Source of the DNA: Azolla caroliniana
Taxonomy: Eukaryota > Plantae > Polypodiophyta
Assembly: GCA_043228905.1 (NCBI GenBank)
Contig: JBHGNT010000008.1
Coordinates: 11,718,001 to 11,782,000, forward strand
DNA: 64,000 bases
Direction: 5' to 3'
Below are positions 12,301-60,348 of this stretch, piece after piece. Below the pieces are notes generated by a model. That model did no database searches and was not told where the DNA came from. It saw only the letters and a list, made by a program, of their open reading frames with translations. Numbering within the stretch: the first letter of the stretch is position 1; the number at the start of each line of letters is the position of its first letter. A program made the position numbers and the translations under genes.

Positions 12301-12859
12301 TTCCAACTCGTAGCTTCCCCTTCGTCTCTTTGGTGAAGTCATGACCTATCTTCTTCGGATCTCTTAAGCTTGGATCGTTAGCGACTTCCTTCATCTTTTG
12401 CCAGCTATCTTCCGGTAGCGGAACCGCAACTGGCTTGATCTTCTTATCCACCGTTTTATATTTCGTGTTGATGTCAGCTTCCTTCATCGAGATGCCACGA
12501 CAGTATTCATCGATGATAGCGTACATGTTGACGGAGTTAACCGAAATCACGCATTGGTTGTGAAGATAGCTCAAGTCCACGACGTCCTCGATTTCGCCGA
12601 TGGTGTCGTTAAATGAGGCTTCTTCCATAATATGAGTCACGAACTCCCCTTCTTCTATTATGTTCTCTTCTTTCAGCATCTTCTCGAATTCTTGTATCCG
12701 GCTCTTGTGCTTCTTGTCGGGTAGTACTAGTTTACATGCGCCACTAGGTGTGACACATGTTGCTTCTCCTTGCAATCCACGCGCTCTTCTTTCTTGTGGG
12801 GTCTTGTGATTGCTCGGACTATTTGTGCCCCATGCTTCAATAGTCCGCTCTAAAAATCC
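9364..12859 (-). pseudogene. G2 pol (RT, RNase H, integrase) with a few inactivating lesions
   Basis: ORF 10769-12775 (RT DLYSGYDQF, LPQG, FLDN in place of FLDD; RNase H). ORF 9703-10545 (HESAWAGH...CETC, ADRGE, ANGKIER). ORF 9364-9630 (GPY motif). Confidence 0.92.
12796..12859 (-). other. Predicted -1 ribosomal frameshift site and H-type pseudoknot between G2 gag-PR and pol
   Basis: Minus strand G GAT TTT TAG, then stem CGGACTATT/AATAGTCCG whose loop TGGGG pairs with downstream CCCCA. The -1 frame is open from this site into the 668-aa pol ORF. Confidence 0.7.
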
Positions 12860-31357: not shown

Positions 31358-32123
31358 TTGAGATGCAATCTACCTGTAGTTGGCATCACTTCACAATTTA
31401 GCTTGAAGTAGTTTTTCATGCAACCAATAGCATGTCGTGCACCTGCACCCTTCATACTTGGAACATCAATATCACAAACGACACTAACATCCCTGTTAAG
31501 AAGTCAATGTTGCACTCTCTGTAACCTCATGTTACTAACAGATAGCGATATTTTTAATGCAACTCTACAACATTGTAGTGCATAGAAGATATAATACTCA
31601 AATGAGATAGAGATGTTCGAAGATTTGTTTGCATGTGTGTTGTAAGGTAAGTGTCTTGCTCATCACCAGGTAGTGAAAAATAGTAACACCTTAATTCATG
31701 CAACTTATCCTTTCCAAGCATGGACATGCAACCACGAGCACAACATGATTTTTTGACATCTATTTCGAGTTGCTTATCTAATGTCACTACGTCAAACCCC
31801 GCTCGGCGTATTCTATGTGGAATTCTCCTAACTTGCATAAGTCTTGACGATTTATTCTCTTTCCCATAAACTGTTGTAACCATATTGGAGACAAGAATGT
31901 CATTGTGTGCCTGAACCTCAATCAGTTTGGACATTTGATTGGCCTTTCCTTCACAGTCCCTATCATCATTGTAGTCATACTCTTCGATAGAGAACTCTTG
32001 AGATGGCTCGATATTCCTTGGAGTAAGAGGAGAAGTTAATCTCACACAATATTCCTCCATTGAGAAAGGTGACCCTTTTGATAAAGAATACTCGTCTACG
32101 GAAAATAGTGAGTTTTGACTCAT
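31358..32123 (-). pseudogene. Sola-like transposase N-terminal part
   Basis: ORF from ATG 32123 (MSQNS...KSCCARGC...YYFSL), then frameshifted MKNYFKLNCEVMPTTGRLHL, which continues across G3. Confidence 0.6.
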
Positions 32124-32797
32124 AGCTGCAATCCCAAAAGTGTCTCTCTTTATGTTGATCTCTTGTTCAAAATAGAGCTTACAACTAATAAAAAACTTCC
32201 TTGTAATATAAATTATGTATAAAAAATAGTAAATATTATATATAAATATAAAGGTATACATTAATTATTTTTAGACACTACTAGTACCTAACTATCTTGC
32301 ACTTGTAAGTACATATATATATCACACTAGTAGTACCTAACTAACTTGCTTTTGTAAGTACATATATTAAATCTTACAAGTACGTACTAACTCTAACTAT
32401 CTTGCCATTATTTCACCTAATAAGTGTAACTAACTAACTTACTTTAACCAACTGACTAACTATACTTCACCTCCTATTAATTGTAGTTAAGTTACCTAAA
32501 CCATGGTCAAAGTCCCCTATAAATAGCTCAGCCTCCTCATTTTAAGGAGCATACAGACCGCACGGAGCACGCAACCAACTTTCACAACTATCTCACGATC
32601 CTCAAGCTTACCTCGGGCATCTACACACACCATGTGAAGCAAGAAAGCCAAACGTTTCGAATCTAGGTATGCTCCTGGATTGTATGGCAGTTTACAACCC
32701 CCCCCTTACTTGGTCTAGAGCATGGACATAGTGTGGAAATTTTCCACACTATCTCGATGCCATGCATCAAGTAATATTAAACTTCTAAATTTAAACA

Positions 32798-33314: not shown

Positions 33315-35015
33315 GTCTTCCGAAAGATCGTAAGGCTGAGGTATCAGGATGGCTCGAGCATGGTAGGGCACCTGAACGCCTTCCAAGGACTAATAAACCA
33401 AATCGCCTCTTTAGAAGTACCTCTTGCTAATGAGGTATTAGCATTATTGTTGCTAGGATCCCTCCGAATAGCTGGGAGATGCTCGTTGTCACATTAGGCA
33501 ACGCCGGACTAGAAGGGAAGCATCTATCCCTAGAGCAGGTGAAGTCGAGCTTACTAAACGAGGAAGCTCGCCGGAAGGACAGGGAGTTCATTGCCGACCC
33601 CAAGGCCTTAGTCACAGAAGGTGACATGGATCGAGGAAGAGGCCGAAATCGAAGTCCCCAAAATCGGGAGGAATTGGGGACGAGGTCAACGTAGAGGGGG
33701 AGGCCCACATGCTTCTATTGCAAGAAGCCAGGGCACTTCTAGAGAAATTGCCGAGACTTTTGAAAAGAGAAAGGGGGAGTTGATGGTATAGAGCCAAAGA
33801 AGATTCTGAACAAAAGGAACACCTCAACAATCGCTACAAGTGAAGAGGAGTCGTTGTTCATTAATGAACAAAATGAAGTTAACCTCGCCGGCGAAGAATC
33901 AACATGGGTGGTCGATTCGGGTGCATCATTCCACCTGACTACCGACAGAGGATGCCTCTCATCGTACACATCTGGTGATCACAGTTTTGTGAAGATGGGA
34001 AATGAAGGAGCATGCCAAATAGTGGGCATTGGAGATGTGTGTTTGGTAACGTCGACTGGGTGTCAACTAGTGTTGAAGACTATTCGACACATTCCAGTGG
34101 TTTGACTAAACCTAATATCAATCAATCAGCTGGATGACGAAGGCTACATAGGTTGTATCCGGAATGGCGTCATGAAGTTCTGCAAGGGGAGCTTGATTAT
34201 GGCCCGAGCCTAGAAAACCAACACACTATATTTGATGCATGCTCGATTATGCTGAGAGGAAGTGAATGTGGTAGCTAACATAGTTTTTGAGCTATGGTAT
34301 AGGAGGTTGTGTCACATGAGCGAGGGATGCGGAGACTTGCCAATGATAACCTCATTTCAAAGGTGAAGAACGTGCATATGGAGAAGTGCACTCAGTGCTT
34401 GGCCGGCAAGAAAAATAAAACCTCTTTCCGAACTAGGCCCCTGATGAGGAAGAGAATATCGTTGGAACTCGTGCATACCGACGTATGTTATGTGAACTCA
34501 AAGTCTCATGCTGCTTCGCAGTACTTTGTGACCTTCATAGATGACTATAGTTGGAAGTTCTGGCCTTCCATCTCGAAAATAAAGGACCAAGTGTTATCCG
34601 CTTTCAAGGAGTTCCAAGCGAGAGCTGAGAGAGAAACCGGCTGAAAACTGAATGCAGTCCGAGAGACAATTTCGGTAAATGTCGTGGGAAATTCGAAGAG
34701 TATTATTGAACTCAAGGTATTCGGCTCGAGTACACAATACTGAAAACTCCAGAGTTGAACGGGCTAGCCGAGAGGATGAATCCGACCCATAATGGAGAGG
34801 TCCAAAGTATGTTAGCACATTCCAAGTTGTTCAAGACATGCTGGGATGAGGCACTGATGACAACAACGTACATGATAAATAGATCACCCTCAACGCCCTT
34901 GGACGGAGATGTTCCATAGAAAGTATGGACCGGCAAAGACGTGTCGTACCGACACCTGAGGGTGTATGGTTGTCTTGCCTACGTGGATGTGGCTAAGGAC
35001 CAAAGGGGAAAATTA
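33315..35015 (+). pseudogene. Copia B internal fragment (gag, protease, integrase), Tnt1-like
   Basis: WVVDSGASFHL, LELVHTDVC, YFVTFIDDYS, PELNGLAERMN, INRSPS. No LTRs visible. Confidence 0.85.
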
Positions 35016-35039
35016 GGTTTTCACTTTTATAGTTTACCT

Positions 35040-36022
35040 TAAACATTCATACCCCTCATATATATACATTAATTTTACATACACATACATACATATTACA
35101 AACAAACATCCACACACATATATGCATACACATACAAATATACATACATTACATATTACATATATACACATATGTACATTCATATATCCATTCATTCATG
35201 TTTATTTTTTTATTTAAGAATATATTCTGTCATTAGTGTAACCATTTTTACAACATTTAAATTCTATGTGATTGGGAGGGGAAACAACCATTCATTCATG
35301 TTTATTCATGCAAGCATACATATTTTATGCATATATTACATATATATATTCATTCATTCATACATGCATACATTACGTGCAAATACATACATACATACAT
35401 ACATACATACATACATACATACATACATACATACTAAACATAACATTCAAACATTCATGTACGAATGTGCATGTGTATGCATATGTCACGTAGATCATGT
35501 ATGAATATGTATATCCATGCACGAATGTACATATGTGTATGCATATATGTAATGTATGTATGTATGTGTATGCATATATGCATATGTAAATGTACATGAT
35601 TCAATCTATATGGATGTGTGATTGTAATATGTACATAATATCTATGTATATATCTAATGTATATATGTGTATGTATATGTAGTAATGTATAAATGAATAT
35701 ATGTATGTCCATGTACGAATGTACATATGTGTATGCATATATCCATATGTAATTTATCTGTGTATGTATGTGTATTCATATATCCATATGACAACGTACA
35801 TGATTCAATGTGTATGGATGTGTGTGTGATTGTAATATGTGCATAATATTTATGTATATATCTAATGTATGTATATGTAGCAATGTATAAATGAATATAG
35901 GTATGTCTATGTACAAATGTACATATGTGCATGCATATGTAATGTATGTATGTGTATGCATATATCCATATGTAATGTATGTTGTGTATGCATATATCCA
36001 TATGTATTGTATGTATGTATGT

Positions 36023-36062
<40 letters not shown>

Positions 36063-36071
36063 ATGTATGTA

Positions 36072-36112
<41 letters not shown>

Positions 36113-36343
36113 GTGTAGGTGTATGCATATATCCATATGTCAATGTACATGATTCAATGTGTATGGATGTGTGTGTGATTGTAATATGTGCATAATATTT
36201 ATGTATATATCTAATGTATGTATATGTAGCAATGTATAAATGAATATAGGTATGTCTATGTACAAATGTACATATGTGCATGCATATGTAATGTATGTTG
36301 TGTATGCATATATCCATATGTATTGTATGTATGTATGTATGTA

Positions 36344-36380
<37 letters not shown>

Positions 36381-36399
36381 ATGTATGTATGTATGTATG

Positions 36400-36438
<39 letters not shown>

Positions 36439-36455
36439 ATGTATGTATGTATGTA

Positions 36456-36486
<31 letters not shown>

Positions 36487-36740
36487 AGGTGTAGGTGTAT
36501 GCATATATCCATATGTCAATGTACATGATTCAATGTGTATGGATGTGTGTGTGATTGTAATATGTGCATAATATTTATGTATATATCTAATGTATGTATA
36601 TGTAGCAATGTATAAATGAATATAGGTATGTCTATGTACAAATGTACATATGTGCATGCATATGTAATGTATGTATGTGTATGCATATATCCATATGTAA
36701 TGTATGTTGTGTATGCATATATCCATATGTATTGTATGTA

Positions 36741-36779
<39 letters not shown>

Positions 36780-38638
36780 GTGTAGGTGTATGCATATATC
36801 CATATGTCAATGTACATGACTCAATGTATATGAATGTGTGATTGTAATATATGCATATGCAATGTATGTATGTGCATGCATGAATGTACATATACATGTA
36901 TTATGTATATATGTAATATGTAATGTATGTATGTTTGTATGTGTATAGTGTATGTCATATGTATATATGCATACATGAGTGTGTGGATGTTTGTTCGTAA
37001 TATTTATGTATATATGTATGTATTGTAGTTTGTGATGATATGTATGTACATATGCAACATATGTATGTATCTGTATGTAACATATTTATGTGTATGCATG
37101 TATGTAATGTATGTATATATGTATATATGTGTATGGATGTATGCTTGTAAAACTTATAACATTGTAGGCATATGTACGTATATATATGGTGATATGTGGA
37201 ATGCGTATGTATGTATGTGTATGCATATATGTATCTGTCAATATACATGATTAAATGAGTATGAATGTGTTTGGAATATATGCATAAGATCAATTTCTTC
37301 CAATATTCTGTACAGTTGGGAAGACATGTACTTTCAGATACACGTGATGTGGTACCAGCTGCATCTCAATATTGGAATCAACAAGGTATTACTCCCCAAT
37401 TCCTTGCAAAATTCTGGGCTATCTTATGGGCAAGAAAACAGCAACACAAAATATTACATGTACAGTGGTTAGTTGTACACAAGGCGTTGCCGGTTGGCAC
37501 ATGGTTGCATAGGATGGGAGTGTCTTCATGTTGTACTCGATGTCATTTACAAACGGAAACTCAAAAACATTGTTTATGGGAATGCATTGATTCTCAACAG
37601 ATATGGCAACGGCTCCTTAGAATTTTCGCTAATTATTTTCCCCCGTTGGTTCTCACTTGGGGCATGGTCGTTTGGACATCACTTGCCCGTGATGTGTTCC
37701 ATTATGGCATCGAATCTATGGACCATGGGTTTTACACTAAAAATGGAAGTGTTCGTACATTATCACTGATGTCATTACAATTTTCAGGAGTAAGGAAGGA
37801 AGTTCAGCCAATATGGGAGATATTGAGTAGTACCACTGTCTATCACATTTGGAAAGCTCGGTGTTCTCTCGTTTTCCATAATCTGAAAACACCACCTGCT
37901 GAAGTGATTTCAAATATTTGGTTAGAGATAGTTCATGCTTTGAAGGGTCAATGGGATGGTATAGTGGGAGATTCTGATGCTAAAATTGCTCAACGGCATG
38001 AGTTTCTTATTATCTGGACAGCTACTCCATTTGTGACATCCAGGTACACAACTCCTTATTGGCATTTTCAGCCACCGAAATGGTTGTTTCCCCCGCCGAT
38101 TAGATAGAGGTTTAAAATCTTGTAATTTGTTTATACTAATGACAGGATATCTTCTTAAAAAAAAAAAAAAAAAAAAAAAAGATGTATGCATATATCCAAT
38201 GTATGTATATGTATGTGTGTATGTGGTCATATGTATGTAAATGTATGAATGTATGTATGCGTATATATGTAATGTATTTATGTATGTATATTTTTGGGAT
38301 ATTTTCATGTTTAGTATGTATATGGTTCGTATATGGATGTATGTTTGTAATATGTACATAATATGCATATATATATCCAATGTATGTCTAAGTATACATA
38401 TACCTAATGTGTGTGTGTATGTAAGTATTGTGGTTTGTATGGTCCAGTATAATCTATATATATGGTGATATGTGGAATATGTATTTACATATGAAATATA
38501 TCTATATATGTATGTGTAAATTTGTATATTGTGTAATAGGTATGGATTATATGCTATGTAATATCTAATTTATTTATGTGTGTGTGCACGTGTATACATA
38601 TGTAACTTGTTTGTAAGTATGAAGATTTGTATACATAT
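35040..38638. repeat. Low-complexity (CATA/TATG/TG)n tract with ~200-380-bp higher-order units; continues at 45388-46066 and 59917-60125
   Basis: Block TGTACATGATTCAATGTGTATGGATGTGTG recurs near 35590, 35795, 36143, 36520 and 36811 with variable microsatellite lengths. 45585-45735 is repeated at ~59963-60110. Confidence 0.9.
37291..38180 (+). mobile_element. 5'-truncated LINE (L1-like ORF2 C-terminus with zf-RVT) with poly(A) tail
   Basis: ORF to 38107 with CTRC...ETQKHCLWEC and YHIWKARC. A24 tail at 38157-38180; possible short TSD AAGAT. Confidence 0.85.
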
Positions 38639-45387: not shown

Positions 45388-46545
45388 CATATAATATGTA
45401 GTCTTAGGTATTAATATGTATGTGTATGTGTATATATATAATATGTAATTTATTTTTCTGTGTTTTGTATGTATATATGCATTTGTGTATGTATGTATGT
45501 CATATGTAATTTTATTGTATGTATTATGTTACATGTATATATGTATGTCAATATATATGGTTGAAACTTGATTCTAATATGTATGCAGTATGTAATGCAT
45601 GTATGTATGTGTATGTACATATTTACATATGGTAATATATATTTGTACATATATTTATGTTTAGTCAGTATGCATGTATAAATGGGTGTAATGTATGTAT
45701 ATACATATTCATGGATGTAATGTTTGAATGTATAGGTATATACGCATGTGTGATGTGGGATATATGAATGTAGGTATATATGCATGTATGTGGTATGCAT
45801 GTGTGATGTGTGTTATGTTCGTGTGTGTATGTATGTATGCATATATTGTATTGTATTGTATGTATGGAATGTGTGTATATGTGTATGTATGTGTATGTAT
45901 GTGTATATATATAATATGTACTTTATTTTTTTGTGTTTGGTTTGTATATTTGCATTTGTATATAATTGTGTGTATAAGAATATATGTGTGTAATATGTAA
46001 TATATAAAATATGTTTGTGAGAATGTGTATGTATATATGTAATATGTAATTTTTATGTATGTATTAGGGTAAAAGCATGCGAGTGGAAACACTATTATAG
46101 CTAATTAGCTACTAAAATGGCCATAGCTAATTAGCTATTTGTTTAGCTAGTCTTTCTTGTGGGAAAATCAAATATTTGAAAAACTAATTTATGAAAAAAC
46201 TCAAATATTTGAACTTCTGTTTCAGACGTAGTGGAACTTGGGGAATATCACCATCATCTAAGGTCGACTTCAATGTCATCAATTTCTTGTTTAGCCTAAG
46301 TCTGATTTTGAACGCAGATGGAGTACTCATAGCACGAACGCAGACGTAGCTCCCGCAACAGCAAAAAATCGACATTGCAGATTGAGAGCTACAACACAGA
46401 ACCCGCTCGATCATCGTCCAGGTATGTTTCAGTTACAGAAACCCCAAACATTTGTTTTTTCATTTTGACTACTGTCTGAACTTTGGTGCCGATTCATATT
46501 TCCCCAAAATCGAATAGGGCGAAGTCCTTGGAGTCCCATACAAGG

Positions 46546-49500
46546 ATGTCTCGCAAATCGGGGAGTAGCAACAGGTGTGTTTATATTACTTTTTTTGTGT
46601 TTAATCCTGTCTTTAGTGATTAGGGTTTGTGATTGAAATTTCTGATTAGGGTTTGTGATTGAAATTTCTGATTAGGGTTTTTGATTATAAATTTCTGATT
46701 AGAATTTTTGAATAGGGTTTCTGGTTACAAATTTTGATTACAAATTAGAATTTCTGAATAGGGTTTTTGTTTATAAATTTCTGCTTAGGATTTCTGATTA
46801 GGGTTTGTGATTGAAATTTTTTATTAGGGTTTCTGATTGAAATTTCTGATTAGGGTTTTTGATTATAAATTTCTGATTAGAATTTCTGAATAAGGTTTCT
46901 GGTTACAAACTTCTGATTACAGATTTTGATTAGGGTTTCTGATTTCAAACTTCTGATTACAGATTTTGATTAGGTTAAGTTAAAGATTTTGCACCATTTT
47001 TGTTGTTGTTGATTGGGGTTTTTGATTCTCACATATTCTGATTTTGCACTATTTCTGATTTCTGAAATGATATTTCAGATGGCTCGTTCCTCCGTATACG
47101 AGAGTGCTAAACTTCGCAAAATTTTGCGAGACAAAGGAGGACTTCCACAACACCTATGGTCTGTCACTCGAGGGTGTTGACCCTGCTGTCCTAAGTGATA
47201 AATTGATCAGTGATATAGACTGGATGACAGTATATACAGTGCCTAGAGTCAAAGGCAAGGTCAAGCTGAAGCATGTACGAGCCGACTTGTACGATGACTG
47301 CATGAGACTGCACCAGAAAGTTCATCAGGAGATCCCAGTCAACAATGAGTTGTCAGTTTCATTTGCTAGAGCATTTGCATATGAGTACTGCAAAACAGCG
47401 AAGGAATCTAGAGACCCTGAAATGTATAGGGTAGCTTGGGCAGTCTATGGTGAGGCATCGGTAAAAAGATGCCGAAAGATGGGGACCTTGGCACAAAAAA
47501 TAGACAGATTTTGGAGCATGGCAGCTGTTGATGCAACTGCCGACTCCCAGCAAGACCGGGGGCATACACCACACCGACACCCAAGGAAAGCCAATGTCGA
47601 TGATACAGGTGAGACATTGGTTAGCTATATGCTAAAAAATGTCCATGAAGCCTGTGAGACATTGGCATTTTTTAAGACTGATTTAGAGAAAGCCACAATG
47701 GCTTCTGCAATGGAGAGCAAAGTTACTTCTGCTGTTACAACAATTAGAAATAAGATTCAGGTAACTATTGTTTTGCTGGTATGTGATTGTGTTATAAATA
47801 ACGGGTAAAATGTGCTAATCAAGCATTATCTGGAATAGGTTGCGCAACAGGAGCTTGAATTAGAGGGGCCACTGGATCCCCAGCGTAAAATAGAACTGCA
47901 AATAGAGATCCAGGTTCTTTCAATGAACCTGGACCTTCTAGGTGTAAATACTGTTGCAGATTACAATTTGGATAAGCTTCAAGTAAGTTAACGATTCCTG
48001 CGCAAAGTTGGTGTATCTTTCAACAACAAGAATAATTAATCGGTAAATTTCTCTGTTGCGTTGAAGGAACAATACATTCATCAAGAACAGGTAGTTAGCT
48101 GCCTTAAGAAGAAGCTACATTTTGTGGAGGAAATGGTAAGGACCAGACAGGATTTGGACCTGAACATTCTTGCTCCCTTACCAAATGAAGTAGAACCAGA
48201 AAATGATTTATTGACAGTTCAAGCACGTTGCATCGCTTGCGGGTTAGGTGTGGAGGACAAAACTGTGTCTTTGTTGGTTCACCTACAACCATGCAACCAC
48301 ACATACCATCTGCTTTGTTTTCAACATGCCTGTCAAATTGCTGCATTCTGTTTGGGAGATTGCAGTACAACTCTACCAAATGAGTGGAGAAAACAAACAG
48401 GTATACCATACTGTAGCTAATAAGCTTAGTCTTTTCTAATTAGCTATCCTACTAGCTAATTAGCTACTGGCAGCTAATGAGCTACTAGCTAATTAGCTAT
48501 CCTAGTAGCTAATTAGCTATGGTACTAGCTAATTAGCTAGTACCATAGTTGTGTAAAAAAGCTAAATAGCTATCCTACTAGCTAATTAGCCACTGGCAAC
48601 TAATTAGCTATCCTAGTAACTAATTAGCTACTGCCATAGTTGTGTAAAGTAGCTAATAAGCTATCCTAGTAGCTAGTTAGCTATGGTACTAGCTAATTAG
48701 CTAGTACCATAGTTGTGTAAAAAAGCTAATTAGCTATCCTACTAGCTAATTAGCTACTGGCAACTAATTAGCTATCCTACTAGCTAATTAGCTATCCTAC
48801 TAGCTAATTAGCTATCATAGTAGCTAATTAGCTACTGACATAGTTGTGTAAAGTAGCTAATAAGCTATCCTAGTAGCTAGTTAGCTATGGTACTAGCTAA
48901 TTAGCTAGTACCATAGTTGTGTAAAAAAGCTAATTAGCTATCCTACTAGCTAATTAGCTACTGGCAACTAATTAGCTATCCTACTAGCTAATTAGCTATC
49001 ATAGTAGCTAATTAGCTACTGACATAGTTGTGTAAAGTAGCTAATAAGCTATCCTAGTAGCTAGTTAGCTATGGTACTAGCTAATTAGCTAGTACCATAG
49101 TTGTGTAAAAAAGCTAATTAGCTATCCTACTAGCTAATTAGCTACTGGCAACTAATTAGCTATCCTACTAGCTAATTAGCTATCCTACTAGCTAATTAGC
49201 TATCCTACTAGCTAATTAGCTATCATAGTAGCTAATTAGCTACTGACATAGTTGTGTAAAGTAGCTAATAAGCTATCCTAGTAGCTAATTAGCTACTGGC
49301 AGCTAATTAGCTATCCTAGTAGCTAATTAGCTACTGGCAGCTAATTAGCTGTCCTAGTAGCTAATAAGCTATCCTAGCTACTACATAGTTGAGAAAGTAG
49401 ATAATTAGCTTTCATTGTAGCTAATTAGGTATCCTAGCTACCACCATAGTTAATAAAGTAGCTAATTAGCTATCCTAGCTACTACCATAGTTAGTAAAGT

Positions 49501-52500
49501 AGCTAATTAGCTATCCTAGCTACTACCATAGTTGAGTAAAGTAGCTAATTAGCTACCATAGTAGCTAATTAGCTATCCTAGCTACTACTATAGTTGTGTA
49601 AAGTAGCTAATAAGCTATCCTACTAGCTAATTAGCTATCCTAGTAGGTAATTAGCTATGGTACTAGCTAATTAGCTAGTACTATAGTTGTGTAAAAAAGC
49701 TAATTAGGTATCCTACTAGCTAATTAGCCACTGGCAACTAATTAGCTATCCTAGTAACTAATTAGCTACTGCCATAGTTGTGTAAAGTAGCTAATAAGCT
49801 ATCCTAGTAGCTAATTAGCTACTAGCAGCTAATTAGCTATCCTAGTAGCTAATTAGCTATCCTACTAGCTAATTAGCTACTACCATAGTTGAGTAAAGTA
49901 CCTAATTAGCTATCCTACTAGCTAATTAGCTACTGGCAACTAATTAGCTATCCTAGTAGCTAATTAGCTGTTGGCAACTAATTAGCTATCCTACTAGCGA
50001 ATTAGCTATCCTAGCGAATTAGCTATCCTAGTAGCTACTGCCATAGTTGTGTAAAGTAGCTAATAAGCTATCCTAGTAGCTAATTAGCTACTGGCAGCTA
50101 ATTAGCTGTCCTAGTAGCTAATAAGCTATCCTAACTACTACCATAGTTGAGTAAAGTACCTAATTAGCTATCCTAACTACTACCATAGTTGAGTAAAGTA
50201 CCTAATTAGCTACCATACTGTAGCTAATAAGCTTAGTCTTTTCTAATTAGCTATCCTACTAGCTAATTAGCTACTGGCAGCTAATGAGCTACTAGCTAAT
50301 TAGCTGTCCTAGTAGCTAATTAGCTATGGTACTAGCTAATTAGCTAGTACCATAGTTGTGTAAAAAAGCTAAATAGCTATCCTACTAGCTAAATTAGCCA
50401 CTGGCAACTAATTAGCTATCCTAGTAACTAATTAGCTACTGCCATAGTTGTGTAAAGTAGCTAATAAGCTATCCTAGTAGCTAGTTAGCTATGGTACTAG
50501 CTAATTAGCTAGTACCATAGTTGTGTAAAAAAGCTAATTAGCTATCCTACTAGCTAATTAGCTACTGGCAACTAATTAGCTATCCTACTAGCTAATTAGC
50601 TATCCTACTAGCTAATTAGCTATCATAGTAGCTAATTAGCTACTGACATAGTTGTGTAAAGTAGCTAATAAGCTATCCTAGTAGCTAGTTAGCTATGGTA
50701 CTAGCTAATTAGCTAGTACCATAGTTGTGTAAAAAAGCTAATTAGCTATCCTACTAGCTAATTAGCTACTGGCAACTAATTAGCTATCCTACTAGCTAAT
50801 TAGCTATCCTACTAGCTAATTAGCTATCATAGTAGCTAATTAGCTACTGACATAGTTGTGTAAAGTAGCTAATAAGCTATCCTAGTAGCTAGTTAGCTAT
50901 GGTACTAGCTAATTAGCTAGTACCATAGTTGTGTAAAAAAGCTAATTAGCTATCCTACTAGCTAATTAGCTACTGGCAACTAATTAGCTATCCTACTAGC
51001 TAATTAGCTATCCTACTAGCTAATTAGCTATCATAGTAGCTAATTAGCTACTGACATAGTTGTGTAAAGTAGCTAATTAGCTATCCTAGTAGCTAATTAG
51101 CTACTGGCAGCTAATTAGCTGTCCTAGTAGCTAATAAGCTATCCTAGCTACTACATAGTTGAGAAAGTAGCTAATTAGCTTTCATTGTAGCTAATTAGCT
51201 ATCCTAGCTACCACCATAGTTAATAAAGTAGCTAATTAGCTATCCTAGCTACTACCATAGTTAGTAAAGTAGCTAATTAGCTATCCTAGCTACTACCATA
51301 GTTGAGTAAAGTAGCTAATTAGCTTTCATTGTAGCTAATTAGCTATCCTAGCTACCACCATAGTTAATAAAGTAGCTAATTAGCTATCCTAGCTACTACC
51401 ATAGTTAGTAAAGTAGCTAATTAGCTATCCTAGCTACTACCATAGTTGAGTAAAGTAGCTAATTAGCTACCATAGTAGCTAATTAGCTATCCTAGTAACT
51501 AATTAGCTATCCTAGTAACTAATTAGCTACTGCCATAGTTGTGTAAAGTAGCTAATAAGCTATCCTAGTAGCTAATTAGCTACTAGCAGCTAATTAGCTA
51601 TCCTAGTAGCTAATTAGCTACTACCATAGTTGAGTAAAGTAGCTAATTAGCTATCCTACTAGCTAATTAGCTACTACCATAGTTGAGTAAAGTACCTAAT
51701 TAGCTATCCTACTAGCTAATTAGCTACTGGCAACTAATTAGCTATCCTAGTAGCTAATTAGCTATCCTAGTAGCTAATTAGCTGCTGGAAACTAATTAGC
51801 TATCCTACTAGCGAATTAGCTATCCTAGTAGCTACTGCCATAGTTGTGTAAAGTAGCTAATAAGCTATCCTAGTAGCTAATTAGCTACTGGCAGCTAATT
51901 AGCTATCCTAGTAGCTAATTAGCTACTGGCAGCTAATTAGCTGTCCTAGTAGCTAATAAGCTATCCTAACTACTACCATAGTTGAGTAAAGTACCTAATT
52001 AGCTATCCTAACTACTACCATAGTTGAGTAAAGTACCTAATTAGCTATCATACTAGCTAATTAGCTATCGTACTAGCTAATTAGCTATCGTACTAGCTAA
52101 TTAGCTATCCTAGCTTCTACCATAGTTTAGTAAAGTAGCTAATTAGCTATCCTAAATAACTGTCATGTTATTGTAGAATCTTGTGGATTAAGGACGGCAC
52201 ATGATGTGTCTGGTGCTGATGATGCTGCAACAGATGAGGATACTACTGCCAATGTGGCTGAAAGTAAGAGTCCTGCTATCACATCTCCTTCAGATCAGCT
52301 GCACCCTATTCTTTTGGAACAGTGTACTGAATTAGGCAACGATGTGAAATGCCATGAAATAGTGGAAACAACATGTAAAACTGAGGTTCACAACAACAGT
52401 GTTTATGAACACTTGATGCAACATTTCTTCGAGTCTCAAGACCTTGATTCCACCCCACCGAGCCCAACTACTGAAAATGTCCAAACAGATCCCTCTGTAC

Positions 52501-52712
52501 TTGAAAAGCTAGTTCAAGAAACGGCTGATGTGCAATTAGCTGCTGAGGCGATGGGAAGGTTGTCGGAGGAGGACACACTTGCGCATTGGGTCCTAGAAGC
52601 AAGGCTAAATGGGGAACCAACCAGAAAAAGGCTGAAGAAGGGGCCACGATCGGGAACAAGACCAGTTACTCGGTCAAGGGGCCCAGACGTAGTGGAGCGA
52701 AATACTGTTTAG
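46546..52712 (+). CDS. Transposon accessory gene, isoform a (574 aa): unknown N-terminal domain, coiled region, RING-H2-like finger, acidic tail
   Basis: Exons 46546-46574, 47079-47760, 47839-47982, 48067-48400 and 52177-52712. All introns are GT-AG, phases are compatible and there is no internal stop. RING-like CIAC...PCNHTYHLLC...CLGDC. Confidence 0.75.
46618..46980. repeat. Degenerate ~26-bp tandem repeat containing telobox TTAGGGTTT, in the first coding intron of the accessory gene
   Basis: GATTAGGGTTTGTGATTGAAATTTCT-like units with several TAGGGTTT cores. Confidence 0.85.
48404..52153. repeat. 3.7-kb array of the palindrome TAGCTAATTAGCTA filling intron 48401-52176, with a ~1.8-kb higher-order duplication
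   Basis: Dense motif copies with short variable linkers. The marker TACCATACTGTAGCTAATAAGCTTAGTCTTTTC occurs at 48404 and 50211. Confidence 0.95.
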
Positions 52713-52961
52713 TTGGATATGATTGTTAGCTTAGGGATTTTGCTAGGGTTTTATGAAGTTTTACTATCCTGTTGGACAAGTAAAACCTCAGATTGGTTGT
52801 TGCTTGATCCACATTATGTAATGGAACTCTATGATGTTTTTCCAAGATAATTTGAAGAGTGTTGTTCTATGACTGAAACTCTTTGATGTTCAGGATATTG
52901 TTTTGTGAGACTAGTAGTTACTTTGTGAGTGTGAATATGTTGGTGTTTTCTGATGTTGCAG

Positions 52962-54016
52962 AGTCTAAAGGGTTTGATTCTATTGCTCGTAAGGCCAATG
53001 GCAGTGTGGATACTGTTGATGTTGCGGCATGTTTAAAGGGCCCCATCTTGAAAGTAGATGTAGCAACTGACACAAGTGATCTGGTCACACAAGTTGATCA
53101 AGCATGTAGCACGGATGACTTGGTGTTGCAAGTAGATGCAGCATGTAGCACGGATGACTTGGTGTTGCAGGTAGATGCAGCATGTAGCACGGATGACTTG
53201 GTGTTGCAGGTAGATGCAGCATGTGATACCAGTGGATTGATATCGAGCAGAACAGTAGCTACATGCACTGAGGTAATCCAAGGATTGATAACTAAGTCGA
53301 CAAAACAAGAGCACCAGAATGTGAAGCTAGGCCCAACACAGTCGACTAGGGGTTTAAAGAGGAAAAGGACACCAGTTGTGTCAGCCGAACCTGAGCTGAT
53401 TGAGATTGATCGTATCCTACCAGAAAATGGTGTAACAGCGGCTCAGTTTCAGGAATGGAAACCTAAACCACTAGAAGTCGAGCGAAGAGCCTTGATCTTG
53501 GAGCTGGATAAAGTCTTGATGAGTGTGAGATATATGCAGCCAAGGAGGGACGCAAATCAGTTTCTAGAGTGGGCTGCGGAGTACTTCGATTTGTTTATTT
53601 GGAGTGAGAAACCAAAATCAGATGTGTGGAAGTGTTTGGCAAGATTCTTCCCAAAATGGCGAAGTCGTTTTAAAGGTCAATGGGCACGAGAAAATTGTGA
53701 GCAGATGGAAGCTGCAAGATTCAAGAGGCTTTCTGATTTTTGGGCTACTTGGCCTGAATATAATGCTGACAATACATTGATTTTGGATACAGAACATTTC
53801 CGACACTACTTCAATATTCGGAGATGCTGTCTCATTCTACCCGAGGAAATGCCTGAACAGTACCTGGTGCAAACAGTGAGCTGCCAACTAGGTGCATGGT
53901 TGTGGACTCCATACCGAGCTCAATATGCGGATAATATATGTAGACTCGTTCCACTGACTAGCAAGAGCTTAGCTGTTTATAGGAGATTTGTAGACATTTC
54001 CAATGGTAATTTATAA
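52962..54016 (+). CDS. FCP1/NIF (HAD-like) phosphatase-homology exon, probably an alternative last exon of the accessory gene (isoform b, 747 aa)
   Basis: ALILELDKVL...FLEWAAEYFDLFIWS...FKRLSDFW...YNADNTLILD resembles NIF/FCP1 domains, with DxDx(T/V) read as ELDKV. Acceptor TTGCAG before 52962 is phase 1, matching the donor at 48400. Confidence 0.65.
53101..53225 (+). repeat. 39-bp in-frame tandem repeat (ACSTDDLVLQVDA, 3+ copies)
   Basis: Units at 53101, 53140 and 53179, partial at 53218. Confidence 0.9.
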
Positions 54017-54160
54017 ATATGTAAAGAGATGACATTATTCAATGAAGAATTTAATTACTTGTTCCCACTGTACTTATCTACTATGTAATTTGAGGAATAT
54101 GTTGCAGATTGTTGATTTCATTCTATTGATGACTATTTAGCTATTGACAGCTAATTAGCT

Positions 54161-54675
54161 ACATTTGTACAGCTAATTAGCTGCATTTGTACAGCTAATT
54201 AACTACTGATGACTATTTCGCTATAACTTATAACTTAAAACTTAACAAAAAAGACATGATTTTATTGAGAAAGAAGCACAGAAAGCAGACTGTATACAAG
54301 AAATTGATTCCAAACGAATTTATTGATCTGTTTTCGCGAAATACATGTTTGTTTTACAAGAGAACATGGTAAGTGCTACTTGTAGCTACAAATTCCATGG
54401 CATACTATTGTAAATACATTTGTACAGCTAATTAGCTGCATTTGTACAGCTAATTAGCTACTGATGACTATTTCGCTATAACTTATAACTTAAAACTTAA
54501 CAAAAAAGACATGATTTTATTGAGAAAGAAGCACAGAAAGCAGACTGTATACAAGAAATTGATTCCAAACGAATTTATTGATCTGTTTTCGCGAAATACA
54601 TGTTTGTTTTACAAGAGAACATGGTAAGTGCTACTTGTAGCTACAAATTCCATGGCATACTATTGTAAATACATT
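54161..54675. repeat. 255-bp direct duplication covering the transposase stop and 3' UTR
   Basis: TGTACAGCTAATTAGCTGC at 54166 and 54421; CTACAAATTCCATGGCATAC occurs in both copies. Confidence 0.9.
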
Positions 54676-57600
54676 CATACACATTAGCACCAACAGTGTA
54701 TAAACCGGAGCAGCTATTGTATTCTGACATTGGGACGTTGATGCATCTGACCAAATGAGAGTACATATACGCTGCTGGTTTGTCTTCTAACAGCCTGTAC
54801 ACATATTCGTAGTCATCTAGTTTTGCATAAAAAATGCCTTCGATGTAGAATGTCCCGGCAGATACAAAATTTCCCCATGCATCTACAATATTCTGCCTTG
54901 CACACTGTTTACTAACCGTGCACTTTAATATATAGAAATCAGCACCCTCTGAATTGCCTTCTTCAGCATTTACAGCGAAGTTATCCCCAACGTTCAGGAC
55001 ATCACTCAAAGTATCTCCAAGTCCCTCATATGTGAAGTCAGCATTCTGCCCTGTTTCTCCATCAACTGCTTCCTTATCATTCAGAGTGTGATACTCCCAA
55101 TTCTGAATGTATGCTTTGTTTAGACAATATCTCCAATTTCCCTGCACACAATGGAAGCAAAAACAAGTCAATTCTCTCACCGCAATACAATGACCATCCA
55201 ACCTGGAATAACCGCGAACAGCATGCAGAGATCGCAATTCGGGAATTCCTTGGCACTCCCAGGTCTTCTCCCTATTTACTTCATCTATCTTCACTTCCCA
55301 AAATTCACGTTTGATATCTCGAACTTGCGAGGAATAAACACCTGTGGCACTCGTCGACATATTTGTTCTTAAAAATTCAACTACATGTGATGCACAATTC
55401 ATGTGCACACCATCTGTCTTTAGTTGTTCATGGGTAAGTGCCCGCTTTATAACAGCCCCTGCACCATCATGTTCACCTTTACCATGGCCAGACCCAAAAA
55501 AATTCCATCTCATCTCCAAACCTGTTATAGCAGGATACCTCCCCACAAAATAAAACGGACGTCGAGCCTTGAATTGTGACGCAGCTCCGTCAGACCAGAC
55601 CCAATGTTGAGTAAGCTCCAAACGTTGAGCTAATAACCACTGCCAATGTAACTTAAAACAGTGTTGGACGAACAAGGTATCATGCTTCTTATCATCGGAA
55701 ATAAAGAAATGAATTACTTTTTTAACATCACCTGAAACTCGAAAATATGTTATGTGCACAAAAATGGTTACCTGAATTGAACACCAATGCATAGATTGAA
55801 TTTCATTCTGCTGCTTGAAAGTATAATTCTCTGCGAAATCTACTACTGAGACTACTACATCATTTGGGAAATCAAATATGCAAGTCTTAAACTGATGGGC
55901 CTGCCATGAATAAATGAAGTTGTGTTTAATGAACTTTCCTAGAGATACTACAAACAGAGACACCAAATCCCTTGGTTTAAGCATCTTCCGAACTAGATCC
56001 TTTCTTTTACACACCTTTCCTTCGAAATTGGTGTTCACTGACTCAAATAACTTCACAGAGATCAATATTTCACTACTCAATTCATTTGGACACCACCTAA
56101 ATCTAGTAGGGCCACAATCTTGACATAAACCCATGACACATTTATGAATATGGAAGATAGCGTCAGATTCTCTCGGACACAATATTGAATCTAATAAATA
56201 ACTCATGGAAGAGATAACGTGCTCAGATGATTTACACTCCTCTTGCGGGCTTGATCGACAGATTTGGCACCCACATGTGCAAACTGTATTAGTTAGGGAT
56301 GCGCTATGGTGACGTAGTAGATTAACAGAGTCCTTCAGAAAACCCATCTGTACATGGTAAATGCAACAACATGTGTATCGATCCTTTAAGCGTCTCACAA
56401 AGTGTGGCTTAAGAGACTCGAATGTTCGTAGTTGAACTTTGATAGTTGGATGCATTCGTTTGAACCTAATAAATAAATCGACCTGCGTAATAAAGGGGAA
56501 TTAGTTATTCTCGTAACTAGCTAACTATCCTAGTAGCTAATTAGCTATTCTAGTAGCTAGTTAGCTATTCTAGTAGCTAGTTAGCTATTCTAGTAGCTAA
56601 TTAGCTATCATGGTAGCTAATTAGTTGTCCTAGTAGCTAATTAGCTATCATGGTAGTTAATTAGCTGTCGTAGTAGCTAATTAGCTATCATGGTAGCTAA
56701 TTAGCTATTCTAGTAGCTAATTAGCTATCATGGTAGCTAATTAGCTATCGTAGTAGCTAATTAGCTATCATGGTAGCTAATTAGCTGTCCTAGTAGCTAA
56801 TTGGTTGTCCTAGTAGCTAATTAGCTATCATGGTAGCTAATTAGCTGTCGTAGTAGCTAATTAGCTATCATGGTAGCTAATTAGCTATTCTAGTAGCTAA
56901 TTAGCTATCATGGTAGCTAATTAGCTGTCGTAGTAGCTAATTAGCTATCATGGTAGCTAATTAGCTGTCATAGTAGCTAATTAGCTATCATGGTAGCTAA
57001 TTAGCTATTCTAGTAGCTAATTAGCTATTCTAGTAGCTAATTAGCTATCATGGTAGCTAATTAGCTGTCGTAGTAGCTAATTAGCTATCATGGTAGCTAA
57101 TTAGCTGTCCTAGTAGCTAATTAGTTGTCCTAGTAGCTAATTAGCTATCATGGTGGCTAATTAGCTTGTCTACTAGCTAATTAGCTATCATGGTGGCTAA
57201 TTAGCTTTCCTAGTAACTAATTAGCTATCACGGTAGCTAATTAGCTAGTAGCTAATTAGTTACTAGGAAAGCTAATCAGCCACCATTATAGCTAATTAGC
57301 TACTAGACTAGCTAATTAGCTACCACGGTAGCTAATTAGCTGGTATAGTAGCTAATTAGCTATCATGGTAGCTAATTAGCTATCACGGTGGCTAATTAGC
57401 TGTCCTAGTAACTAATTAGCTATCATGGTAGCTAATTAGCTGGTCTAGTAGCTAATTAGCTGTAATGGTGGCTAATTAGCTATCCTAACTAATTAGCTAT
57501 CATGGTAGTAGCTATTGAGAGTAGCCAGTTACCTATGTAGTAGCTATCATAGTAGCTAATTAGCTATCATGGTAGCTAATTAGCTTTCCTAGTAGCTAAT

Positions 57601-58489
57601 TAGCTGGTAATAACGAAATAGCTAACTAGCTACCATGATAGCTAACTAGCTAGCAGTACAGCTAATTAGCTTTTCTGCTAACTGAGCTAATTAACTTTCT
57701 GAGTAGAGTCAAAACAAATGTTGAGATAAATGTAAATACCTGAGGTACATCAAGAAGATGAATGGGATGCTCCTCGTATTGATTTCTTCCAACACGTTTC
57801 CTGCATAAATCCTTTTTATTGGGTGAAACCCTACTCTCATTAGTCCAAAACATTGTGATTACATCCTTGATTTCAAATGTTATGGGTGTCATTGGCTTAC
57901 ATCTTGTAGTTAGCTTTAGTAGACTAGTTCCTTCACCCGAGGAAATTATACGGTTCATTGTATTGTACACTGTTTTTCTACTAACACCAATTACCTTAGA
58001 TAGCTCACTGATGTTTATATCGTCAACATCACTATTAAGTAACATCATTAGACTAGACCTTTTTAAGACAAGATCATCTTCTGACCTGCTCATGGATACG
58101 AAACTATTACGAAGATTATTTACTAAAATAGATGATATGTTTGCATTAAGACCATCACAATCAACTAAGTCCTTTATCGATGGATCATTACATATTCCAT
58201 AAAGTACTACCTTCTTTTCTTCATTGCTGATGTGCTTGGTTTGAACATTGAAATAGTCTACCACCTTTCTCTCTATGATGGTAGTCGCATTACTTACATT
58301 CTCATCTAAACTATCCTTACCTTTACTGAGTGTGGCTTTCGTATCCTTCAACAATTGACGATGTTTCCTTTTTTTTTCTGCCCAATAGTTTCGTATGGCT
58401 TGTTGTGTCCTGATAACATCATCCCTATCCTTATGATCATTGAGGGGTAATTCTAAACACCCTTCTTCCCCTTCCATTTGGCTAGACAT
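54641..58489 (-). CDS. Sola2-type DDD transposase, two exons (58489-57740 and 56482-54641), 863 aa
   Basis: The phase-0 GT-AG intron joins LLDVPQ to VDLFIRFKRMHPT in frame. Catalytic motifs VDFAENY, WSDGAASQFK and GHGKGEHDGAG; N-terminal HTH-like ISELSKVIGVSRKTVY; Cys clusters. Confidence 0.88.
56515..57695. repeat. Second TAGCTAATTAGCTA array (mostly 20-bp period) filling the transposase intron
   Basis: TAGTAGCTAATTAGCTATNN units stay in register at 20 bp over 56521-57240. Confidence 0.95.
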
Positions 58490-58825
58490 GTTAAAACCCT
58501 AAATTTCCAGAAAAAAAAACAAGTATTAAAGATGGCTATGGGCAACAACAATACACAAAAATATTCCACACAATACACAAGATTAGACACAACAATACAC
58601 AAGATAATCAATAGACAGAAAAGTTATTGCAATCCAAGACCGAACAGTAGAGGATTTCACTCTGTTGGATCCAACAGTTGAGGAGGCGATCCAAGACCGA
58701 CCAATGGCAACAACTGAGTGTAGAATGTTGCCGTTGGATGAGTGAACTCCGTCAAATCGAAATGTGGAAGCAATCCGGGACTGGACAGTAGTGGCAACTG
58801 AGTATAGAATGATGGCAATGGAGGA

Positions 58826-59558
58826 GAGAACCCCGTCAGATTGAACAGTTACCGATGATGCTTGAAACGCACATAGAAGGCACTTGAGAATAGAGTGGCA
58901 TAGAGAAGAGAACCCCGTCAGATTGAACAGTTACCAATGATGCTTGAAACGCACAGTAGCGGCCCCTGAGTGAGAGTGGAAAAGAGAAGAGAACCCCGTC
59001 AGATTGAACAGTTACCAATGATGCTTGAAACGCACAGTAGCGGCCCCTGAGTGAGAGTGGAAAAGAGAAGAGAACCCCGTCAGATTGAATAGCTCTTCGA
59101 TTATGCTTGGAACGCACAGTAGCAACCCCTGAGTGTAGAGTGGCAAAGAGAAGAGAACCCCGTCAGATTGAACAACTCTTTGATGATGCTTGGAACGCAC
59201 AGCAGCGGCCCCTGAGTGTAGAGTGGCACAAAGAAGAGAACCCCCTCAGATTGAACAGCTCTTTGATGATGCTTGGAACGCACAGTAATGGCCCCTGAGT
59301 GTAGAGTGGCACAGAGAAGAGAACCCCCTCAGATTGAACAGCTCTTTGATGATGCTTGGAACGCATAGTAATGGCCCCTGAGTGTAGAGTGGCACAGAGA
59401 AGAGAACCCCGTCAGATTGAACAGCTCTTTGATGATGCTTGGAATGCACAATAGTGGGCCCTGAGTGTAGAGTGTCACAGAGAAGAGAACCCCGTCAGAT
59501 TGAGCAGCTCTTTGATGATGCTTGGAACGCACAGTAGCAGCCCCTCAGTGTAGAGTGG
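58826..59558. repeat. Nine copies of an 81-83-bp minisatellite upstream of the transposase
   Basis: GAGAACCCCGTCAGATTGA-like starts at 58826, 58908, 58989, 59070, 59153, 59236, 59319, 59402 and 59485. Confidence 0.92.
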
Positions 59559-60348
59559 CGGCAGGTGGACTCGATAGGGTTTAGCAACAGTGGTAGCAAC
59601 TAACCCACAGTACTCAACTAGAGATGGCCTACGTGATGTGGCAAAGGATCATGCATAATGGACCTAGGAATTCGATATATAATTTATGGTACACATTTAT
59701 GGTGCACACATCAATTTATGTTGCACATTTATGGCACTCATTTACATATGTAATTAAAACACTCTAGTATTTTCAATGGTAGTTTTTTGCATACTTAATT
59801 TATTAATGATGGCTTTTTACTAAAATGACTATTTATCAATGGTAGCTTTTTGCATAGCTAATTAGCTATGTCAAGGACATAGCTAATTGTTTCCACTCGC
59901 ATGCTTTCACCCATTATGTATACTCCTATCTCAATATATATGGCCGATTCTAATATGTATATAGTATGTAATGCATGTATGTATGTGTATGTACATATTT
60001 ACATATGTTAATACATATTTCTACATATATTTATGTTTAGTCAGTATGCATGTATAAATGGGTGTAATGTATGTATATACATATTCATGGATGTAATGTT
60101 TGAATGTAGGTATATGCATGTATATGCTACTCCAAATTTGAGTATTGTTTGTATAATATATTCTTTACTCATTGAAATATCTAATATTTCATGGGCTTAT
60201 GTAATTTTTTTTTCCAGCATAATTGATAATACCCTTATGTAAATATATTTTCAAATCTTTATTAATACCCTTATATATATATATATTCTTTATCTCACTG
60301 ATTAATTTAAACCCCTTTTGAAGAACTCACGTGCTATCATACAAGTTT

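What the first reader, a model, noticed from the sequence alone, without database searches (positions are those of the whole stretch)
46067..59912. 13.8-kb intact Sola2-type transposon with a second, multi-exon accessory gene
Seen: near-perfect TIRs, an ATTA TSD, an uninterrupted spliced 863-aa transposase, and a convergent gene whose five coding exons splice in frame without a stop. Nearly everything else in the window is decayed. Known: Sola elements are usually described as single-transposase elements, whereas accessory genes are typical of Harbinger, CACTA and VANDAL-type Mutators. Inference: a young, possibly active two-gene Sola family whose RING-containing cargo is a maintained component, for example an anti-silencing or transposase-regulating factor.
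Basis: partly seen in the sequence, partly recalled or inferred. Interest (0 to 1): 0.85.

Follow-up and report, generated by a model that had tools for sequence, protein, structure and literature searches.

The report
Two-gene Sola transposon of seedless plants
An intact 13.8-kb Sola-like DNA transposon, likely from a fern, carries a second intron-containing gene with an unrecognised domain that also lies beside distantly related transposases, and this gene likely helps the element escape host silencing by binding repeat arrays in its own introns.

Summary
The element is real: 25-bp TIRs (24/25), an ATTA duplication with a single-ATTA paralog 540 bp upstream, an 863-aa DDD transposase and a convergent 574-aa five-exon gene. 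Two probable RNA runs of a related organism splice three introns (UTR, 1-2, 2-3), but that transcript leaves the element in exon 3; later junctions are unconfirmed. The gene is not a recent host capture. Its N-terminal domain has 139 hits, and Adiantum proteins share the order N-domain, coiled coil, RING, NIF. Parts of the gene lie convergent to transposases only 32-55% identical, including moss-clade loci. The domain folds confidently (pLDDT 95) with no Pfam or clear PDB match. A palindromic motif fills the introns (161 of 168 copies, none in exons), differs between families, and the element lacks the CWG depletion of neighbouring elements. Best model, inferred: a VANC-like sequence-targeted anti-silencing factor (0.5). 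Main rival: a MURB/TNPA-like transposase cofactor (0.3). No binding, methylation or mobility was measured; the primary Sola paper and Repbase could not be read.

The parts
46063..46066 (.). Left target-site duplication ATTA
   Evidence: single-ATTA paralog at 45523-45526
46067..46091 (+). Left TIR, 25 bp, begins GGG; two motif copies follow at 46100 and 46126
   Evidence: 30 X10 contigs with unlike flanks at 46067
46184..46421 (+). Non-coding 5' exon of the accessory gene (true start unknown; 46184 is where the RNA contig begins)
   Evidence: joint 46421/46518 in X18 and X19
46518..46574 (+). Accessory coding exon 1, ATG at 46546
46617..46973 (.). 13-bp tandem array in intron 1
47079..47760 (+). 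Accessory exon 2: conserved N-terminal domain (about 47107-47517) and start of the coiled coil
47839..47982 (+). Accessory exon 3, predicted coiled coil; acceptor seen in RNA contigs, donor not
48067..48400 (+). Accessory exon 4: RING-H2-like finger (C340, C343, C361, H363, H366, C369, C380, C384); junctions predicted only
48436..52151 (.). 3.7-kb intronic array of the palindrome AGCTAATTAGCT, 113 motif copies, commonest spacing 20 bp
52177..52712 (+). Accessory exon 5: acidic region, basic patch, TRS motif, stop (574-aa form); junction predicted only
52962..54016 (+).
54160..54675 (.). 255-bp tandem duplication (99.6%) between the two 3' ends, with 4 motif copies in this intergenic region
54641..56482 (-). 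Transposase exon 2: Cys/His-rich region and invariant D465, D548, D589
56525..57605 (.). 20-bp-period array of the same palindrome in the transposase intron (48 copies in the intron)
57740..58489 (-). Transposase exon 1 with a weak HTH match; intron position shared with relatives
58785..59559 (.). 83-bp tandem array, 9.3 copies, upstream of the transposase
59888..59912 (-). Right TIR; one motif copy at 59857
59913..59916 (.). Right target-site duplication ATTA

Best explanation
This is an intact two-gene Sola-like transposon whose second gene is an old, maintained component that likely acts as a sequence-targeted anti-silencing factor, in the manner of VANC. Shown: the structure, the splicing of the first introns in a related copy, the conserved domain order and the convergent position beside distant transposases. 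Inferred: the N-terminal domain, dimerised by the coiled coil, would bind the family's own palindromic motif arrayed in the introns. The RING-like finger and the probably inactive NIF-like domain would then remove or block host silencing factors there, so that non-CG methylation is lost along the element and the transposase can be expressed.
For: (1) Motif layout: 168 motif copies, 161 in the two large introns, 4 intergenic, 3 next to the TIRs, 0 in exons; 0 exact 10-mers in 50 kb of flank. VANC21 targets are likewise tandem arrays in introns, intergenic and terminal regions (PMC5735166, passages and section 7). (2) The arrayed motif differs among L002, L004, L006, L007 and L008. (3) CWG observed/expected under a codon-shuffle null is 0.76-1.39 in 6 element ORFs against 0.31-0.91 in 16 other TE ORFs of the window, while CpG is depleted (0.26-0.65). 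VANC21 removes non-CG methylation broadly and CG only locally, and fern TEs carry high mCHG (PMC9122828 passages). (4) Deep conservation: fern-type and moss-clade profiles align at 97.9%, E 5e-13. With the fern-only profile, 9 of the 10 best locus hits lie downstream on the minus strand (20% expected, p 4e-6). (5) VANC21 is predicted to dimerise through a coiled coil (PMC13547354), and PMD-phosphatase fusions exist (PMC7156037); both are analogies only.
Against: No sequence link to VANC or PMD: no such Pfam family among those listed for 53 and 17 members and no PDB profile hit. The domain has no consistent positive charge (median net +2 over 69 sequences). The CWG contrast is confounded: copia, LINE and one chromodomain-integrase ORF are only mildly depleted (0.66-0.91), the other DNA-transposon ORFs are decayed, the ORFs are not independent, and no host-gene control was available. 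L002, the closest distinct family, has a non-palindromic motif. Motif copies beside both TIRs also fit a transposition role. The only spliced transcript seen breaks off at 47882. Exons 3-4 show no purifying signal in the listed variants.
Confidence: 0.5

Rival explanations
1. The accessory protein is a transposition cofactor, like MURB, CACTA TNPA or the Harbinger Myb protein. It would bind the sub-terminal motif copies and/or the transposase to build the transpososome or guide insertion, and the intron arrays would be by-products.
For: Motif copies lie within 60 bp of both ends (46100, 46126, 59857). Long linkage to the transposase. MURA-MURB binding is a precedent (PMC12973397 passages).
Against: 161 of 168 motif copies are in introns far from the ends. 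The transposase has its own weak HTH match. This model does not predict retention of CWG.
Confidence: 0.3
2. The transposase binds the motif. The accessory protein does not bind DNA and works as a general E3 ligase or pseudo-phosphatase scaffold against a host restriction factor, or as a brake on its own transposase.
For: The RING-like ligand set is kept in 9 of 40 long homologs. NIF occurs in the same proteins. The N-domain is not strongly basic.
Against: The N-domain, not RING or NIF, is the part detected in moss-clade loci. L002 has no room for a NIF exon. Listed variants in exons 3-4 are all non-synonymous.
Confidence: 0.15
3. The gene is passive cargo: a captured host gene or a nested element that rides along without function.
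For: 10 of 19 locus clusters with long downstream flank show no N-domain. Whole-gene variant test 14 N / 10 S, p 0.086. Some annotated homologs are fused to gag, protease or host domains. No TIR pair enclosing both genes was found in the distant loci.
Against: Same side and orientation beside transposases 32-55% identical. N-domain variants 4 N / 7 S (p 0.012, post hoc subset) and NIF variants 3 N / 5 S (p 0.037). A sister family keeps a full NIF ORF at 66% identity. No internal TIR or TSD bounds the gene.
Confidence: 0.05

Closest known systems
Sola superfamily, Sola2 subgroup (Bao et al. 2009; primary paper not held, seen only through PMC10741241, PMC4455052 and PMC9033089 passages)
   Same: 4-bp TSD, short TIRs, DDD transposase with no Pfam family, size within the reported range; distant hits in animals.
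   Different: A second, convergent, multi-exon gene and large intronic motif arrays. The reviews read name only Sola1 in plants and mention no accessory gene.
VANDAL/VANC anti-silencing system of Arabidopsis Mutator-like elements (PMC5735166)
   Same: TE-borne accessory gene; family-specific short motif in tandem arrays in introns, intergenic and terminal regions; globular domain plus coiled coil; composition that fits loss of non-CG methylation.
   Different: Different transposon superfamily and plant lineage (VANC is described as dicot-specific, PMC13547354). No sequence similarity; the fold match is at noise level (Z 2.0, rmsd 4.3, 111 aligned). RING-like and NIF-like domains are added. Function untested here.
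Plant mobile domain proteins (MAIN, MAIL1, MAIL3; PMC7156037)
   Same: TE-associated plant domain that is found with a phosphatase domain in cis or trans. I recall a loose motif resemblance to PMD, which is a lead and comes from no call.
   Different: No PF10536 hit among the families listed. The phosphatase-like domain here is HAD/NIF type, not PPP/PP7.
MuDR MURB, CACTA TNPA, Harbinger Myb-like second proteins
   Same: Second ORF in a TIR transposon; MURA-MURB binding is reported in PMC12973397. TNPA binding of sub-terminal repeats and the Harbinger case are recalled.
   Different: Unrelated domains; most motif copies are internal, not sub-terminal.

Membership tests
Sola superfamily | 4-bp TSD | tested here: met
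   ATTA on both sides, single ATTA in the paralog; feature from PMC10741241
Sola superfamily | DDD transposase | tested here: met
   D465, D548 and D589 are invariant in 38 aligned sequences; their catalytic role is inferred
Sola superfamily | TIRs of 11-1124 bp | tested here: met
   25 bp, 24/25; range
Sola2 subgroup | Similarity to reference Sola2 transposases or profile | not testable with these tools
   Pfam has no Sola model (PMC5751038; no hit); no named Sola2 protein among 120 listed hits. The label rests on recalled motifs.
Sola2 subgroup | GRG...CYC termini (recalled, from no call) | tested here: met
   GGG...CCC
VANC | Sequence similarity to VANC proteins | tested here: not met
   No PDB profile hit to 9lnk at E up to 10 (one search lists the best 60 of 171, all outside the N-domain core)
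VANC | Shared fold with VANC21 | tested here: inconclusive
   9lnk_A is row 10 of 13 rows with Z of 2 or more among 48,161 chains; Z 2.0, rmsd 4.3, 111 of 153 aligned, the longest alignment listed; absent from Foldseek
VANC | Family-specific motif in tandem arrays in non-coding regions | tested here: met
VANC | Motif binding and induced demethylation | not testable with these tools
   Only the indirect CWG signal
VANC | Carried by a Mutator-like (VANDAL) element | tested here: not met
   No MULE Pfam hit; 4-bp TSD
Plant mobile domain (PF10536) | Pfam match | tested here: not met
   None for the window member or 17 members scanned singly; one search lists only 25 of 49 families across 53 members
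Plant mobile domain (PF10536) | Structural match to MAIN-like models | not testable with these tools
RING-H2 finger | Eight Cys/His ligands in RING-H2 order | tested here: met
   By inspection, last pair spaced C-x3-C; Pfam is weak here (E 0.39) and E 8e-4 in P0220, both below the curated cut-off
NIF/FCP1-like phosphatase (PF03031) | Pfam score above cut-off | tested here: met
   32.1 vs 21.8 bits, E 1.1e-7
NIF/FCP1-like phosphatase (PF03031) | Catalytic DxDx(T/V) motif (recalled) | tested here: not met
   Window and P0260 read E-L-D; four relatives read D-L-N, so probably a pseudo-phosphatase

The most novel reading that the evidence does not exclude
Land-plant Sola2-like transposons have carried, since before mosses and ferns parted or by transfer between them, their own sequence-specific anti-silencing system. 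It consists of an undescribed DNA-binding domain (a new fold, or a very remote and older relative of PMD/VANC) with a RING ligase and a pseudo-phosphatase, co-evolving with family-specific intronic motif arrays. This would be a second, much older VANC-like arms race outside flowering plants and outside Mutators.
Probability: 0.45. Interest if true: 0.9.

Novelty: new variant of a known kind. Interest (0 to 1): 0.75.

Why it matters
In the papers read here, sequence-specific anti-silencing by a TE protein is shown for VANDAL/VANC, described as dicot-specific. A comparable system in another superfamily, in ferns and mosses, would show that the strategy is general. It would also give a set of natural protein-motif pairs to test, and a possible tool for targeted epigenome editing. 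Even without that function, it defines a two-gene architecture for plant Sola2-like elements and an unclassified, well-folding domain. It also explains a group of 'hypothetical proteins' in fern annotations as likely transposon genes.

Tried and rejected
No host genome is held, so copy number, full-length copies and host-gene controls could not be examined. My first exon coordinates were off by one base and gave stops; corrected. The word-index search with exon 2 among longer proteins found nothing, and the Atlas gave only scores under 0.8; the full HMMER search then found 139 hits. No run is on record as RNA; X18-X20 are guesses. X20, from the best-holding organism, laid one contig on 46040-48430 and showed no junction; exons 4-5 and the NIF acceptor had no junction-spanning contig. 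Summed contig depths in DNA runs are high over both genes, but the tool states this is no copy number. Fold searches found no clear match: Foldseek PDB and viral, none at E 0.001; VIA-wide on the longer model hit only coiled coils; VIA-wide on the domain, best Z 2.5; second look, none. This shows neither a new fold nor a different one. The complex prediction (transposase pieces plus exon 2) returned no verdict, score 0.00, alignments not used. Scans of viral contigs and genome contigs found nothing. No Rfam hit. A TIR-plus-TSD search in distant loci gave only AT-rich chance pairs. The 9-of-19 against 0-of-16 count is partly circular, because all nine clusters seeded the moss-clade profile; I rely on the fern-only test instead. 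A conserved C-terminal TRS motif as a nucleosome anchor (recalled analogy) is seen in the window, L002 and L004 but near the end of only 2 of 40 long homologs: left as a weak lead. Two look-ups of earlier findings returned nothing. Papers not held: Bao 2009, Tanaka 2026, Sasaki 2022.
Full report
Observation. The element runs from 46067 to 59912. Its TIRs are 25 bp with one mismatch and ATTA lies on both sides. The TIR core occurs nowhere else in the window. The flank is a tandem duplicate, and the upstream copy has a single ATTA and no element. In DNA run X10, 30 contigs continue into mutually unlike flanks at exactly 46067, so this is a dispersed family with that end. The transposase splices to 863 aa (a nearby donor gives 860 aa, but relatives end exon 1 at the 863-aa position). 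It has three invariant aspartates and dN/dS 0.21 against L001. The five accessory exons splice to 574 aa.

A 379-aa ORF at 52877-54016 matches Pfam NIF above the curated cut-off. It begins at a phase-1 acceptor, as do the matching exons in L004 and L007, and exon 4 joined to it would give 747 aa. How it is joined is not settled: exon skipping, an internal donor in exon 5, or its own ATG are all possible. The first catalytic Asp is Glu here and in a sister family (66% identical overall), and other relatives lack the second Asp, so it is probably inactive. The canonical motif is recalled.

Splicing. Contigs of runs X18 and X19 (RNA by the tool's guess, one study, a related organism) skip three GT-AG introns, 46422-46517, 46575-47078 and 47761-47838. 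DNA run X10 shows none of these joints. The first is a new 5'-UTR intron; the other two are exactly those predicted. The contig is about 95% identical and leaves the element at 47882, so it comes from a truncated or chimeric copy. Junctions 3-4, 4-5, the NIF acceptor and the transposase intron remain predictions; the transposase intron lay outside the two stretches laid.

Is the gene maintained? Exon 2 has 139 hits at E 0.001 or better among 50%-identity representatives, mostly over its residues 10-146. Of 20 such proteins looked up (mostly long ones, my choice), 12 carry a name and all 12 are Adiantum. The host is therefore likely a fern; this is inference. P0176 and P0236 have the order N-domain, coiled coil, RING-like finger, NIF, and P0214 ends inside the NIF region. 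These are annotators' gene models, not transcripts. The RING-like motif is present in 9 of 40 long hits. Among 80 loci fetched with the transposase alignment (the best 80 of 346 confirmed), L004 and L007 carry a convergent NIF exon, and L007's closely resembles that of P0236. The 80 loci form 46 clusters; 27 have under 5 kb downstream and are mostly uninformative. Of the other 19, nine show N-domain fragments and ten do not. All nine seeded the second profile, so the fair test is the fern-only profile: single hits are weak (E 0.017-2.5), but 9 of the best 10 lie downstream on the minus strand where 20% is expected (p 4e-6). A profile built only from locus fragments aligns to the fern profile at 97.9%, E 5e-13 (fragments were picked from weak hits, and the reversed control gave nothing under E 0.2). 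In a quick tree (careful search unfinished; 14 of 37 chosen loci left out as too short) the accessory-bearing loci fall both in the window's clade and in a clade with Ceratodon, at 32-55% transposase identity. No TIR pair enclosing both genes was found in these mostly decayed loci, so linkage there rests on position. Variants listed by read laying (40 of 121 and 40 of 300 rows) give 14 N / 10 S for the five exons (p 0.086), 4 N / 7 S in the N-domain (post hoc, p 0.012), 6 N / 0 S in exons 3-4, and 3 N / 5 S in NIF. Selection is clear for the N-domain over deep time and unclear for the RING exon among recent copies.

The N-domain. AlphaFold2 folds it with pLDDT 94.8 and pTM 0.88. No Pfam family matches the window domain, no PDB sequence matches the domain profile, and structure searches give no clear match. 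One of 13 rows at Z 2 or more is VANC21 bound to DNA (Z 2.0, rmsd 4.3, 111 aligned). That is noise level and is recorded only as a lead. VANC is reported to resemble MAIN structurally (PMC13547354 section 10), and I recall a loose motif resemblance to PMD that I could not test.

Repeats and composition. A palindrome, AGCTAATTAGCT, occurs 168 times by a relaxed pattern: 113 in accessory intron 4, 48 in the transposase intron, 4 intergenic, 3 by the TIRs, none in exons. Its commonest spacing is 20 bp and the exact 10-mer is absent from 50 kb of flank. Related families have their own motifs in the transposase intron and often downstream; these are palindromic in L004, L007 and L008, and not in L002. 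With protein sequence held fixed, CWG is not depleted in the element (0.76-1.39, six ORFs) or in nine related transposases (0.85-1.25). It is depleted in eight gypsy-like ORFs (0.31-0.44) and three other ORFs of likely DNA-transposon origin (0.40-0.48), and less so in five copia, LINE and integrase ORFs (0.66-0.91). This fits long-term escape from CHG methylation, but insertion preference or element class could give the same pattern.

Mechanism. Shown: anatomy, early splicing in a relative, conserved architecture and position, motif layout, composition. Inferred: a dimeric N-domain binds the intronic palindromes and RING/NIF act on silencing factors, as a VANC-like anti-silencer (0.5). Rivals: transposase cofactor (0.3), DNA-independent ligase or scaffold (0.15), passive cargo (0.05). 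'Young' is fair for this copy (perfect TSD, 99.6% internal duplication). Activity is not shown.

Literature. Six searches on Sola or on TE anti-silencing in seedless plants listed no paper whose title or abstract start describes a two-gene plant Sola element. I read passages of PMC10741241, PMC12973397, PMC5751038, PMC4455052, PMC9033089, bioRxiv 10.1101/2021.09.26.461848, PMC7156037 and PMC9122828, and passages plus one section each of PMC5735166 and PMC13547354. PMC9033089 names Physcomitrella Sola1 and Capsicum; PMC12973397 counts Ginger and Sola together as 9 of 3203 active clusters. Bao 2009, Tanaka 2026, Sasaki 2022 and Repbase were not available and no supplements were read. Some Sola elements exceed 15 kb, so a second ORF may already be noted in Repbase or in the supplement of PMC12973397.

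Verdict. A real, intact element with an ancient accessory gene: a new variant of a known kind, interest 0.75.

Noticed in passing
P0269 (unnamed Logan record): A 996-aa ORF joins N-domain, coiled coil and RING-like finger in frame to a cytochrome P450; P0267 is the P450 alone and P0220 the unfused form. A possible TE-host chimeric gene or an assembly chimera.
   Followed up: partly
window 22740-24147 and 31557-32264, minus strand: Decayed DNA-transposon ORFs; 23557-24147 matches DUF7869 (E 9e-43). From recalled motifs it may be another Sola-type element; not tested.
   Followed up: partly
P0152, P0162, P0230, P0241: Proteins with the N-domain plus gag, protease or zinc-knuckle matches: either fused gene models over nested insertions or carriage of the domain by retrotransposons.
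   Followed up: no
window 9706-14619 and 25385-30050, minus strand: Two gypsy-like elements with DUF4100 gag regions show strong CWG depletion but no CpG depletion, the reverse of the Sola element.
   Followed up: partly
window 58785-59559: 83-bp array (9.3 copies) upstream of the transposase without the palindromic motif; role unexplained; no Rfam hit.
   Followed up: no
window 53090-53224: A 39-bp coding repeat in the NIF exon varies in copy number between families; variable VANC regions also contain tandem peptide repeats (PMC5735166).
   Followed up: no
window 35000-38300 and 45400-46066: The element sits in a degenerate TATG-rich repeat; similar arrays occur at 35-38 kb. A possible target preference for AT-rich simple repeats.
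   Followed up: no
L012:3769-4524 and L002:7110-7601, minus strand: Convergent acidic ORFs ending in a basic patch downstream of the transposase, like exon 5; their N-domain exons were not detected in these contigs.
   Followed up: partly
P0032 and P0131: A transposase relative and an N-domain relative both come from ENA contigs of 8136 bases; they may share one contig. Not verified.
   Followed up: no
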